Of a DNA stretch of 64,000 nt, positions 18,001-21,000 are shown piece by piece (position 1 is the first letter of the stretch; each line of letters begins with the position of its first letter). Location: the NCBI RefSeq assembly GCF_055900595.2, contig NZ_CM148325.1; one strand, written 5' to 3'. Position numbers: made by a program.

Positions 18001-21000
18001 ATGTCGCCAACCACCATGTTGCCAAGCTGGAACTTGCCAAACTCAATGCCGCGCGGCGCATCTGCCGGACGGGGGGGTGAACATCTGCCATTCGCCATTA
18101 AAGTCTTCATTAATAAACGGGCTGGCGGCGCGGAAATCGACCACTTCCGTCCCGTGTTTCGGCGCGCCGAACCGCACGCGGATCTTCACTTCATTGGCTG
18201 AAATCGCCCTGTCTTCATACTCCACCAACGCGGCAACGCGCGGTGCTGTGGCTACTAACTTTTTCATGTAAAACTCCTTGTCAAGAAACTGGCCGCTTTA
18301 GCCCTTCACGCCACCGGCGGTCAAACCACTCTTAATAAAACGTTCCGAAAGTGCATACATAATCACCACCGGCAATGCGGTCACCAGCGAGGCCGCCATC
18401 ATTCGGCCCCAGATGTAATCAGGGGTACTGAACAGCGCGTTCAGGCCTACCGGTAAAGTGAAATTGCTGGCGCTGGAGAGGAAAATCGAGGCAAACAGAT
18501 AGTCGTTCCACGCCACCATAAAGCAGTAGACGAACACGGATATCAGGCCCGACATCGCCAGGGGCACTGTGATACGGAAGATGATTTGCAGACGGTTGAG
18601 GCCATCCATCATCGCCGCTTCTTCGATTTCATCAGGGATGGTGTCGAAGTAGCTTTTCAGCATAAACACGGCGGTGGGCAGGGTTTGCGTCACCATGGTG
18701 ATGATCAGCGCCATCTCGGTGTCGTAAATGCCAAGCGCAGTGATGATTTTGAACAGCGGCACCACCAGCAAAATGCCGGAGAACATGTACACCGTGTAAA
18801 AGCTGGCGTTGATGGTCATTCGCCCTTTAAAGCGCAGGCGGGAAAGCGCGTAAGCCCCGAGAATGCCGAGAAATACTGCTATCACGGATGAAACTACCGA
18901 CACCACCAGGCTGTTACGGAAATAATCGACAAACGGGAAAATCACCGGGTTAAAAATGTCGACGTAATGCTCCAGCGTCCACTGCTGTGGCAGCAGCGTA
19001 GGATGCAGCGAGATCGCCTCTTTCGCGCTTTTGAACGAGGTCATCAGCATCACAAAAAAGGGAAACAGCGTGATGATGAGAAACAGCGCAAGCCCGCAGT
19101 AAAAACCGATGCGACTGAGTGTGCGTTTATTTGTTGCCATTGAGGTTCACCCGTTTTCTGGTCAGCAGAATGACAGCGAAAATAATGATGAAGAGCACCA
19201 CCGAGATCGCCGCCGCTTTCCCTAAGTCATTAAAGGCAAAGGCGGTTTTGTAGAGATAGACGCCGAGAATATCGACCTTGGTCGTCAGCAAATAAACGTC
19301 CGCGAACATGTAGAACATCCAGATGGTACGCAGAGTCACCACCGTCGCCAGGACCGGCATAATCGCGGGCAGCGTGACGATGCGAAACCGTTGCCAGGCA
19401 TTCGCGCCGTCCATCTCTGCCGCTTCGTACAACGATTTATCAATGGTCTGCAAAATCGCCAGAAACGAGATAAAGGCATACGGGAAGTAGCGCCAGATGG
19501 CGAACAGCACCACCAGCACAAAACTACTGCCCGGGTTATCGAACCACAGCGGCGCCTGCTCATAGAGATGCAGAAGATCGACGCCGAGGTAGTTCACAAT
19601 GCCGTAGCCGTTGTTGAACATGTATTTCCAGGCGAACACCAGTGAAATGGATGGCGTTACGTAGGAGAGGATCACCAACGAACGCGCGGTCTTGCGCAGG
19701 CGAAACTCGCGGTTGAAAAACATCGCCACTGCCAGCCCGAGCACGGTGCTGCCCGCCACCACCAGCGCGGTATACCAGACCGTCATCCACAGCGAGTGCC
19801 AGAAGCCGGGATCGGAGAGAATACGCACATAGTTGCTCACCCCAACAAACGTTGACTCGATGTTGGGATTAAGCGGCAGACGTAAAAAACTGATTTCGAT
19901 ATTCGACACCATCGGCCACGCCACCAGACCGCCCAGCAGTAATAAGCTGGGCGCGAGAAGCAACAGCGCAAAGGGCATATCGGAACGACCTGAAAAAAGC
20001 CTGTTCATTGCGGATTCCTGTTCTGGGATTAGTGCTGTTCGATCAGTTCATCCAGCTTTTTCTGGCTCGCTTGCAGCGTGGTTGAGAGATCGGCTTTCCC
20101 CACGGTGACGTTATGCACCATTGAACTCACCACACCAGAGCCCGTGACATCGCCCATGCGGGTAAAGTTTTTGTCCCCTACCGCACCAAAGACCTGAATG
20201 TTTGGCAGTTCGCTAATCAACTGATTCGGCAAGTCTCCCAGCGCCTTAATCACGTCGTTATCTTTCCAGGTGGCAGTAGTCACAACCGCTTTGTTCACCG
20301 GCAGCGCCGCGCCTGGCGACATCATCACCCAGTCGGCAATGTTGTCTGCCTGCTCCATAAAGGTGACAAATTTTTCTGCCGCTTCCGTCTCTTCGCTTTT
20401 TTGCCCGGCGGTAATGGTCAGCGAGGTCAACATGCCGTAGACCGCCGAGTTTTTCTCGGTTGGCACCACGAAACCGACATTTTTCGGGTCACCTTCTTTA
20501 ATCACAGCCGGAAGGATATAGGTGGAGTAAATCGCCATCGGCGCAGTGCCGTTCATAAAGGCGTCTTTCACTTCCATAATGTCGTTAGAGCCCGGCATGG
20601 TGTTGGCAGCAAGGTCGCGGTAATAGGTCAGCGCCTGCATCATCTCCGGCGTATCAAGGGTGATTTTGCCTTCGGCGTTAAAAACGTTGGCCTGATTGGA
20701 TAACGCAAACTGAGAGAACGATTGTTCCGTCAGTACGCTTTCTGCCGTCGGCAGTGCAATACCGTATTTTTTATTCGCCGGATCGTTCAGTTTCTGTGCG
20801 ACATCCAGCAACTGTTGCCAGTTTTTCGGCTCATCCAGCCCGGCTTTTGCCAGCACATCTTTGCGATACCAGATACCGCCAATCCATGCGCTGACAGGAA
20901 CACCGGTCCAGGCGCTACCATCTTCGGTGCGCACAATCCGCAGAACGCCGTCATAAAACGCGCCTTCACCGACATTACTGATGACCGTAGCAACCGCTTT

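What the first reader, a model, noticed from the sequence alone, without database searches (positions are those of the whole stretch)
18043..18110. ycjQ split by a +1 frameshift in a G7 homopolymer
The N-terminal 74-aa and C-terminal 298-aa ycjQ ORFs overlap at gggggggt (18071..18077). The remembered YcjQ reading (…QMFTPRPADAPRGIEF…) needs six C on the coding strand; seven are present. This is either a homopolymer sequencing error or a genuine inactivation. With the IS200 in ycjT it would be a second independent lesion in the same sugar-catabolism operon, suggesting the pathway is decaying in this strain. Slipped-strand phase variation is a third possibility.
Basis: partly seen in the sequence, partly recalled or inferred. 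Interest (0 to 1): 0.5.

Follow-up and report, generated by a model that had tools for sequence, protein, structure and literature searches.

The report
Real, recurrent frameshift knocking out ycjQ
The extra G in this seven-base run is a real, inherited mutation that cuts short a sugar-metabolism enzyme (YcjQ) in one lineage of Escherichia cryptic clade I; it is an ordinary case of gene decay, made a little unusual because the same short run has changed length several times among very close relatives.

Summary
G7 at 18071-18077 (C7 on the coding strand) splits ycjQ into a 74-aa and a 298-aa ORF. Deleting one C gives exactly the intact 350-aa YcjQ of sister strains, which differs from K-12 YcjQ at 3 residues.

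It is not an assembly artefact. The exact 74-aa product is called on 92 contigs from NCBI, ENA and Logan. Three Illumina-backed hybrid assemblies carry the identical allele, and PGAP flags it there as "frameshifted". In 38 kb, the window and eight relatives differ by only two indels, this tract and a 711-bp IS200.

The lineage is Escherichia cryptic clade I, ST485 or close to it. The C6 run is lineage-specific: K-12 has ACT CCG at this site. Outgroup-rooted SNPs show that C7 arose at least twice, or moved once by gene conversion.

The same allele also carries an independent W60* nonsense mutation in other strains. The window's sub-branch later gained IS200 in ycjT. In a sister clone an A-to-C change fused the run into C9, which occurs as C8 (in frame), C9 and C10.

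Verdict: slippage-driven loss of function in a decaying, weakly selected operon. The tract is a mutational hot spot, but adaptive phase variation is not shown. Low to moderate interest.

The parts
18071..18077 (-). The homopolymer: G7 on the + strand, C7 on the ycjQ coding strand. The intact allele has C6 (codons ACC CCC CGT = T64 P65 R66).
   Evidence: Alignment with 11 relatives shows a single-base length difference exactly here.
18078..18078 (-). The base that bounds the run on its 5' side (A on the coding strand, in codon ACC). In a sister clone it is C, which fuses the run with the preceding C into an uninterrupted C9 (also found as C8 and C10).
   Evidence: L036, L037 and L041 have C9, L038 has C10, and L044 and L045 have C8.
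17214..18267 (-). The whole ycjQ pseudogene (1054 nt; the intact gene is 1053 nt). It encodes D-guloside 3-dehydrogenase, a medium-chain dehydrogenase.
   Evidence: RefSeq ycjQ, flagged 'frameshifted'; 347 of 350 residues identical to K-12 after repair; Pfam ADH_zinc_N at 168-289; function.
18043..18267 (-). N-terminal ORF of 74 aa: 65 native residues, then 9 out-of-frame residues, ending at a premature TGA at 18043-18045.
   Evidence: The exact product (P0001) is on 92 contigs.
17214..18110 (-). C-terminal ORF of 298 aa: 13 out-of-frame residues, then native R66-F350. Gene callers usually start it at the second ATG (294 aa). No Shine-Dalgarno sequence is visible upstream.
   Evidence: The 294-aa product (P0031) is on 100 contigs.
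14270..14980 (-). A 711-bp IS200/IS605-family element inserted in ycjT. This is the second lesion in the operon. Boundaries are accurate to within a few nt of alignment ambiguity.
   Evidence: 711-column insertion relative to 8 relatives; identical junctions in L021; same insertion in other contigs.
14377..14835 (-). tnpA of the IS: a 152-aa Y1 transposase.
   Evidence: NF033573 transpos_IS200, 144 bits against a cut-off of 55. Pfam Y1_Tnp on the same gene in L021 and L036.
14981..15347 (-). ycjT (kojibiose phosphorylase) 5' fragment. The ORF runs on into the IS, giving a 140-aa product (14925..15347).
   Evidence: The exact 140-aa product (P0035) is on 21 contigs.
12369..14269 (-). ycjT 3' fragment.
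9666..23014 (-). The ycjMNOPQRSTUV-ompG sugar-uptake and catabolism cluster in which both lesions lie. All other genes are full length in the window.

Best explanation
**What it is.** The seventh G is a genuine, heritable +1 insertion produced by replication slippage in a C6 homopolymer. Two synonymous changes (ACT CCG to ACC CCC) had created that run in this part of the species. The insertion shifts the frame after residue 65 of YcjQ (D-guloside 3-dehydrogenase). Translation stops 9 codons later, so the product lacks the whole NAD-binding domain and is almost certainly inactive.

**Where it occurs.** The allele is fixed in sub-branches of an Escherichia cryptic clade I (ST485-type) lineage. 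It has appeared there at least twice: on the window's branch, and on a separate West-African branch.

**Why it persists.** ycjQ appears to be under weak or no purifying selection in this lineage. The evidence is an independent W60* nonsense allele, the later IS200 insertion in ycjT on the window's own branch, and further lesions in ycjM, ycjO and ycjV in other strains. This is stepwise decay of a rarely used sugar pathway, helped along by a mutational hot spot.

**Shown:** the lesion, its reality and inheritance, its recurrence, the order of events (ycjQ before ycjT), and the further tract changes.

**Inferred:** slippage as the mechanism, loss of enzyme activity, and relaxed selection.
For: **The lesion**
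- Sequence and ORFs.
- Removing one C gives exactly the sister strains' intact protein.
- PGAP marks the identical 1054-bp allele 'frameshifted' in E200086, 100117 and 100248.

**Not an artefact**
- Those relatives are Unicycler hybrids with 250-490x coverage including Illumina.
- The exact 74-aa product is on 92 contigs and the 294-aa product on 100 contigs, from NCBI, ENA and Logan.
- It is present in draft assemblies and a metagenome (L014, L015, L016, L040).
- The tract and the IS are the only indels among the window and 8 relatives in 38 kb. About 34 other runs of 6 nt or more are unchanged.

**Origin of the run**
- K-12 has ACT CCG, with no run.
- Only 16 of 5426 complete genomes have C6 here.

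**Recurrence**
- Rooted with 3 outgroups, the 8 relatives share 6 derived SNPs that the window lacks. The C7 trio sits inside them on a 3-SNP stem. The five C6 strains share no derived site.
- L014, on the window's side of the root, has C7.

**Relaxed selection**
- W60* occurs in the same allele with C6 (L027, L028).
- IS200 in ycjT is shared by 21 contigs.
- Lesions elsewhere in the operon: ycjO frameshift in WL297, ycjM deletion in L044, K-12 ycjV/ymjB pseudogene.
- G8 in sapC and C7 in sapA never vary in the same genomes.

**Mechanism**
- Indel rate rises exponentially with run length, and 7-8 bp G·C runs are hot spots in E. coli: PMC8510543.

**Truncation**
- Pfam ADH_zinc_N spans residues 168-289.
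Against: - No reads were available for the window's own assembly, so its C7 call rests on concordance with relatives.
- Loss of activity is inferred, not measured. A low level of full-length protein from +1 ribosomal slippage on CCC-C cannot be excluded.
- Window-lineage SNPs inside the operon split 3 nonsynonymous to 3 synonymous, which is not a clear sign of relaxed constraint.
- The two C7 origins could instead be one mutation plus a short gene conversion of less than about 6 kb, between window positions 15947 and 22208. The data cannot separate these.
- In-frame variants occur inside the IS-bearing clone (L021 with C-A-C6; L044 and L045 with C8). If real, the frame has been restored at least once. 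That fits a reversible switch better than one-way decay.
Confidence: 0.8

Rival explanations
1. Adaptive phase variation. The poly-C run acts as a contingency switch that turns YcjQ on and off by slipped-strand mispairing at a rate high enough to matter within populations.
For: - The tract has changed length at least 4-5 times in a lineage with about 0.05% or less nucleotide divergence.
- It lies in the first 20% of the gene, as phase-variable tracts usually do.
- In the sister clone the run is C8 (in frame, T64P; 6 contigs with GenBank accessions), C9 (21 contigs) and C10, on near-identical backgrounds.
- L021 has an in-frame C-A-C6 allele among frameshifted relatives.
Against: - For the window's own C-A-C7 form, only C6 and C7 exist. 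Exact look-ups for the C4, C5 and C8 products found nothing among 15 billion proteins, and no complete genome has C5.
- C7 follows clades rather than being scattered.
- Seven bases is short for a mismatch-repair-proficient Escherichia (established knowledge).
- The gene is a cytoplasmic catabolic enzyme, not a surface or restriction-modification gene.
- Irreversible lesions (W60*, IS200 in ycjT) accumulate in the same pathway. In the IS-bearing clone, restoring ycjQ cannot restore the pathway.
- L021's only other indel in 21 kb is also a one-base G/C-run contraction, so it may be a long-read under-call.
Confidence: 0.12
2. Assembly or sequencing artefact. The true tract is G6 and the gene is intact in the window's strain.
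For: - Homopolymers are the classic site of indel errors.
- No reads are available for the window's assembly.
- Some assemblies in the collections are error-prone here, namely L020 and perhaps L021.
Against: - The same C7 occurs in Illumina-backed hybrids, drafts and metagenome assemblies from many projects.
- The nearest relatives carrying the same ycjT::IS200 also have the frameshift (L040, L036, L037 and 14 similar places).
- There are no other indels against 8 relatives in 38 kb, including another C7 run.
Confidence: 0.03
3. Recoding. Full-length YcjQ is still made in useful amounts from the C7 allele, by +1 ribosomal slippage of tRNA-Pro on CCC-C or by RNA-polymerase slippage on the run, so the gene is not really dead.
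For: - A +1 shift at CCC|C within ACC CCC CCG would give exactly the wild-type T-P-R reading (sequence).
- CCC-C is a known shift-prone quadruplet. This is established knowledge about tRNA-Pro, m1G37 and EF-P, and was not tested here.
- The pseudogene carries no further damage.
Against: - Nearly all orthologues are in frame (4980 genomes; K-12), so the site is not a conserved programmed signal.
- There is no Shine-Dalgarno-like stimulator upstream, and no stop or rare codon in the A site. The next codon is CCG.
- Background slippage at such sites is about 1% (knowledge).
- The lack of further damage is equally explained by the lesion being recent.
Confidence: 0.05

Closest known systems
Homopolymer-slippage frameshift pseudogenes (ordinary bacterial gene decay, as annotated by NCBI PGAP as 'frameshifted')
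   Same: It is a one-base insertion in a mononucleotide run relative to intact orthologues, with a premature stop. It is inherited by descent and accompanied by an IS insertion in a neighbouring gene of the same pathway.
   Different: The same run has been hit more than once in a very shallow lineage. A point mutation then lengthened it to C9, which varies further.
Contingency loci: poly-G/C phase variation in Haemophilus, Neisseria, Campylobacter and Helicobacter
   Same: It is a G/C homopolymer near the 5' end of an ORF whose length polymorphism toggles the reading frame. The sister clone shows three lengths, one of them in frame.
   Different: The tract is short (7). The host is mismatch-repair-proficient Escherichia. 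The gene is a cytoplasmic sugar dehydrogenase. The states follow clades, and no within-culture heterogeneity has been shown. The pathway also carries irreversible lesions.
ycjV/ymjB pseudogene of E. coli K-12 (same operon)
   Same: It is an independent inactivating lesion in the ycjMNOPQRSTUV-ompG cluster of another lineage, which supports weak selection on this cluster.
   Different: It affects a different gene (the ABC transporter ATPase), by a different lesion, in a different phylogroup.
+1 frameshifting at CCC-C by tRNA-Pro, and programmed +1 frameshifting in prfB
   Same: The run offers perfect re-pairing for tRNA-Pro in the +1 frame, and a +1 shift would restore wild-type YcjQ.
   Different: There is no conserved signal, no stimulatory Shine-Dalgarno sequence and no slow A-site codon. 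The ancestral gene is in frame, so any rescue would be incidental leakage.
Transcriptional slippage rescuing homopolymer-frameshifted genes in insect endosymbionts
   Same: Long homopolymers in coding regions carry frameshifts that may be partly corrected at the RNA level. This is most relevant to the C9 and C10 sister alleles.
   Different: Those cases involve poly-A runs of 9 or more in AT-rich, repair-poor genomes. Here the run is C7 in a normal Escherichia genome. This was not tested.

Membership tests
YcjQ (D-guloside 3-dehydrogenase, medium-chain dehydrogenase family) | Sequence identity to the characterised K-12 YcjQ over its full length | tested here: met
   After removing one C, 347 of 350 residues are identical to K-12 b1313, and the protein is identical to WP_000737371.1. 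RefSeq names ycjQ 'D-guloside 3-dehydrogenase'.
YcjQ (D-guloside 3-dehydrogenase, medium-chain dehydrogenase family) | Rossmann NAD-binding domain of zinc-type alcohol dehydrogenases | tested here: met
   Pfam ADH_zinc_N, E=3.5e-26, residues 168-289, with a weak ADH_N match at 71-106. No NCBIfam equivalog reaches its cut-off.
YcjQ (D-guloside 3-dehydrogenase, medium-chain dehydrogenase family) | Synteny within ycjMNOPQRSTUV-ompG-ycjW | tested here: met
Homopolymer-slippage frameshift pseudogene | One-base length change in a mononucleotide run relative to intact orthologues, giving a premature stop | tested here: met
   C7 against C6. The stop falls after 74 codons.
Homopolymer-slippage frameshift pseudogene | Real and heritable, i.e. 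seen in independent assemblies and following descent | tested here: met
   92 contigs carry the exact product. The allele is in Illumina-backed hybrids. The C7 trio shares 3 derived SNPs. L014, L040 and L036 on the window's branch also carry the frameshift.
Homopolymer-slippage frameshift pseudogene | Loss of the encoded activity | not testable with these tools
   Inferred from the loss of residues 66-350 from the first ORF. An enzyme or growth assay is needed.
Phase-variable contingency locus (slipped-strand mispairing) | Several tract lengths among very close relatives, including in-frame and out-of-frame states | tested here: inconclusive
   Only C6 and C7 are seen for the window's C-A-Cn form; C4, C5 and C8 products are absent. 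The A-to-C sister clone has C8, C9 and C10.
Phase-variable contingency locus (slipped-strand mispairing) | Reversibility (OFF to ON) | tested here: inconclusive
   In-frame L021 (C-A-C6) and L044/L045 (C8) sit inside a frameshifted clone. A frame-restoring step is favoured by only one parsimony step, and L021 may be a long-read under-call.
Phase-variable contingency locus (slipped-strand mispairing) | Length heterogeneity within a single culture, with a high switching rate | not testable with these tools
   This needs read pile-ups (for example SRR35329244 and SRR35332982) or fluctuation assays.
Phase-variable contingency locus (slipped-strand mispairing) | Gene class where switching is advantageous (surface structure, restriction-modification, uptake receptor) | tested here: not met
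   YcjQ is a cytoplasmic sugar dehydrogenase.
Programmed +1 ribosomal frameshift (prfB-type) | Frameshift site conserved across orthologues | tested here: not met
   4980 genomes carry ycjQ at near-full-length coverage. All 22 genotyped C6/CCCCGC loci and K-12 read through in frame. Only C7-derived alleles are shifted.
Programmed +1 ribosomal frameshift (prfB-type) | Stimulatory elements: an upstream Shine-Dalgarno-like sequence, and a stop or rare codon in the A site | tested here: not met
   The coding strand reads GAA TGG CAG ATG TTC ACC CCC CCG TCC. There is no GGAGG-like element, and the A-site codon is CCG.

The most novel reading that the evidence does not exclude
Two synonymous substitutions created a fragile C6 run in ycjQ. 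In Escherichia cryptic clade I this run has become a de novo, reversible length-variable switch (C6/C7, then C8/C9/C10 after an A-to-C change). That would be a contingency-like locus caught at birth in a metabolic gene of a mismatch-repair-proficient Escherichia, possibly with leaky +1 decoding on CCC-C.
Probability: 0.15. Interest if true: 0.55.

Novelty: new member of a known kind. Interest (0 to 1): 0.3.

Why it matters
This mostly matters as quality control. It shows that a homopolymer frameshift in this window is biology, not error, and that both lesions in the ycj operon are real.

Biologically, it documents stepwise, convergent loss of the D-guloside/kojibiose (ycj) pathway in an eatA-positive cryptic clade I lineage isolated from children's stool in the GEMS study. 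The same gene was hit by two frameshift events and a nonsense mutation, and then ycjT was hit by an IS. This suggests the pathway is dispensable in that niche, or even costly.

It is also a tidy natural example of how synonymous changes can create a mutational hot spot, and how a further point mutation can lengthen it into a much less stable run. C7, C9 and ycjT::IS200 would serve as convenient markers for sub-lineages of ST485.

Tried and rejected
1. **C7 probe against complete genomes.** A 47-nt C7 probe returned no match even though three genomes carry it. BLAST's low-complexity filter masks C7. The result is uninformative, and C7 in other allele backgrounds could not be counted this way. 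The C6 and C5 probes did work.
2. **L021 as proof of reversion.** It is an in-frame C-A-C6 allele sharing the window's IS. I rejected it as firm evidence because its only other indel in 21 kb is another one-base G/C-run contraction, G6 to G5 at window 10611. Its 5.49-Mb contig suggests a long-read assembly.
3. **L015 (metagenome).** It has a 7-SNP mosaic patch 300 nt from the tract, so it was not used for the phylogeny. L020 is riddled with indels and was also excluded.
4. **Test for relaxed constraint.** Window-lineage SNPs in the operon gave 3 nonsynonymous to 3 synonymous, which is no usable signal.
5. **One gain plus a reversion in the C6 strains.** I fetched a further 50 kb from 7 genomes. 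No site unites the five C6 strains, while the C7 trio gains a 3-SNP stem. A single reversion is therefore disfavoured, but a short gene conversion cannot be excluded.
6. **Other short ycjQ products in the protein cluster.** Most are Enterobacter fragments or products cut off at contig ends. Only P0009 (W60*) was relevant.
7. **Primary papers.** The Raushel-lab papers on YcjQ/R/S (PMC6613369, PMC7509853, PMC5953851) are not held. The function is cited second-hand from PMC11543891 and PMC13053599 and from RefSeq product names.
8. **The 681-aa hypothetical protein at 2185-4230.** An NCBIfam scan found nothing.
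Full report
**Observation.** The + strand at 18060-18080 reads atctgccggacGGGGGGGtga, with G7 at exactly 18071-18077. On the minus strand a 74-aa ORF (18043..18267) and a 298-aa ORF (17214..18110) overlap across the tract. The coding strand reads TTC ACC CCC CCG TCC ... TGA. Residues 1-65 are native YcjQ, followed by nine out-of-frame residues and a stop. Removing one C gives a 350-aa protein identical to WP_000737371.1 of sister strains, and it differs from K-12 YcjQ at only three residues. The window has only three G/C runs of 7 or more. 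The other two, C7 in sapA and G8 in sapC, are in frame.

**What the gene is.** The surrounding genes are the ycjMNOPQRSTUV-ompG cluster with ycjW. RefSeq names ycjQ D-guloside 3-dehydrogenase. Two papers on YcjN summarise the Raushel-lab work assigning YcjQ, YcjR and YcjS to the interconversion of gulosides and glucosides, and YcjT to kojibiose phosphorylase (PMC11543891; PMC13053599). Pfam places the NAD-binding domain at residues 168-289, so the 74-aa product cannot be a functional dehydrogenase. No Shine-Dalgarno sequence is visible in front of the downstream ORF.

**Artefact or real.** Among 5426 complete E. coli genomes, 4985 carry ycjQ, but only 14 match the window's allele at 99% or more. 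Three of these (E200086, 100117, 100248) match all 1054 bases, and PGAP annotates ycjQ in them as a frameshifted pseudogene. It is the only pseudogene in the 41 kb fetched from each. The five nearest other genomes have 1053 bases and an intact gene.

E200086 and 100117 are described as GEMS isolates of Escherichia cryptic clade I, ST485, OND:H45. They were assembled with Unicycler from 150-bp Illumina reads plus nanopore reads, at 250-490x total coverage (PMC13064198). 100248 lies in the same accession series but is not in that paper's table. In a hybrid assembly of this kind the homopolymer call rests on Illumina reads.

An alignment of window 1-38267 with the eight relatives contains only two indels, this tract and a 711-bp insertion in ycjT. 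About 34 other runs of 6 nt or more, including another C7, are identical.

The exact 74-aa product is called on 92 contigs, and the matching 294-aa C-terminal product on 100 contigs, from NCBI, ENA and Logan. Draft and metagenome contigs carrying it were inspected directly. An artefact is therefore very unlikely.

**Where the run came from.** K-12 reads TTC ACT CCG CGT. The window's lineage reads TTC ACC CCC CGT, so two synonymous changes made the C6 run. Only 16 complete genomes have C6 with these flanks, and none have C5. The C7 probe was masked by BLAST's low-complexity filter and gave no information.

**History of the tract.**
- *Rooting.* With three outgroups, the eight relatives share six derived SNPs that the window lacks, and the window has nine of its own. 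The root therefore lies between them.
- *The trio.* The three C7 genomes sit inside the eight-strain clade. They share a derived base at window position 23044 (all three). E200086 and 100117, the two fetched for the adjacent 50 kb, also share derived bases at 38968 and 58817. The five C6 genomes share no derived site in 88 kb. C6 is thus ancestral for that clade, and C7 arose on the trio's stem.
- *The window's side.* A draft genome without the IS (L014) also has C7.
- *Conclusion.* C7 therefore arose at least twice. Alternatively it arose once and was moved by a conversion tract shorter than about 6 kb, which would leave no trace between positions 15947 and 22208.

An independent nonsense mutation, W60* (TGG to TAG, 12 nt upstream), occurs in the same allele with C6 on at least five contigs.

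**The window's own sub-branch.** The 711-bp insertion at 14270-14980 encodes an IS200-family Y1 transposase. It splits ycjT into a 140-aa-encoding fragment and a 3' fragment. That exact 140-aa product is on 21 contigs. L014 has C7 but no IS, so the ycjQ frameshift preceded the ycjT insertion.

Within the IS-bearing clone:
- The window and L040 have C-A-C7.
- L036, L037 (plus 14 similar places) and L041 have an A-to-C change at window position 18078, which fuses the run into C9. It is still out of frame, and its product is on 21 contigs.
- L038 has C10.
- L044 and L045, from two different projects, have C8. This restores the frame and gives full-length YcjQ with T64P, on 6 contigs with GenBank protein accessions.
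- L021 shares the IS and has an in-frame C-A-C6. Its only other indel is also a one-base contraction of a G/C run, so its call is doubtful.

Counting conservatively, the tract has changed length at least four times, and changed base once, in a lineage that differs by about 0.05% or less in this region.

**Interpretation.** The simplest reading is slippage-driven loss of function in a gene under weak selection.
- *Mutability.* Indel rates in E. coli rise exponentially with run length, and 7-8 bp G·C runs are outlier hot spots (PMC8510543).
- *Selection.* The G8 run in sapC and the C7 run in sapA never vary in the same genomes, so mutability alone is not enough.
- *Other lesions in the pathway.* These include W60* in ycjQ, IS200 in ycjT, a ycjM deletion in L044, a ycjO frameshift in WL297 and the ycjV/ymjB pseudogene of K-12.
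- *A limit on this argument.* SNPs in the operon split 3 nonsynonymous to 3 synonymous, which neither supports nor contradicts relaxed constraint.

**Phase variation.** The hypothesis has something in its favour: repeated changes, a 5' location in the gene, and three lengths in the C9 clone, one of them in frame. Against it, the window's own form shows only two states that follow clades, and exact look-ups for the C4, C5 and C8 products found nothing. The gene class is also atypical. In the IS-bearing clone, restoring ycjQ cannot restore the pathway. I rate adaptive phase variation at about 0.12.

**Recoding.** Incidental +1 decoding on CCC-C would restore the wild-type protein, but it lacks any conserved or stimulatory signal. 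I rate physiologically useful rescue at about 0.05.

**Novelty and score.** A homopolymer frameshift pseudogene is a well-known kind of lesion, and PGAP already flags this one in three RefSeq genomes. What is new is the documented recurrence and the later growth of the run into a variable C8-C10 tract. Interest is 0.3.

Noticed in passing
window 14270-14980 (tnpA at 14377-14835, minus strand): A 711-bp IS200/IS605-family element interrupts ycjT (kojibiose phosphorylase). It is absent from all close complete genomes. The same junctions occur in L021 and L036, and the resulting 140-aa YcjT fragment is on 21 contigs. Relatives carry about 16-18 matching places, presumably mostly copies of this IS.
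   Followed up: yes
window 38884-38891 (sapC) and 36069-36075 (sapA): A G8 run and a C7 run lie in frame inside sap transporter genes. Neither varies in the window or the 7-11 relatives compared. They serve as an internal control showing that long G/C runs stay stable when the gene is under selection.
   Followed up: partly
L027:3001-3180 and L028:1376-1555 (equivalent to window ~18089): An independent ycjQ knockout, W60* (TGG to TAG), occurs in the same allele with a C6 tract, on at least 5 contigs including GCA_029998395.1.
   Followed up: yes
L036, L037, L041 (C9), L038 (C10), L044, L045 (C8); equivalent to window 18071-18079: In a sister clone that shares the ycjT IS, the A bounding the run became C. 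This gives an uninterrupted poly-C that occurs in three lengths. The C8 form restores the frame with a T64P change.
   Followed up: yes
L013 (WL297) ycjO; L044 at window-equivalent 22278 (ycjM); L046 (K-12) ycjV/ymjB: Other strains carry different inactivating lesions in the same ycj cluster: a ycjO frameshift, a 1-bp deletion in ycjM, and the split ycjV pseudogene of K-12. The cluster seems to decay in several lineages.
   Followed up: partly
window 2134-4230 (+ strand): A ~681-aa 'hypothetical protein' (WP_103253635.1) lies between tyrR and tpx. It has no NCBIfam match and is split into two ORFs in strain Z0117EC0005.
   Followed up: partly
L029-L035 (ST485 genomes, beyond window position 64000): All ST485 genomes examined share a frameshifted yciQ and a frameshifted hypothetical gene next to rluB. 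In addition, E200086 has an IS1 there, E500002 has a frameshifted yciF, and E400634 has a 9-bp deletion in sohB.
   Followed up: no
L015, equivalent to window 18388-18457 (3' end of ycjP): A metagenome contig carrying C7 has a cluster of 7 SNPs within 70 nt. This is either a recombination patch or a chimeric assembly of two strains.
   Followed up: no
window 10606-10611 (ycjV-ompG spacer): A six-base G/C run (C6 on the + strand) is G5 in the outgroups and in L021. This could be another length-variable run or a long-read under-call in L021.
   Followed up: partly
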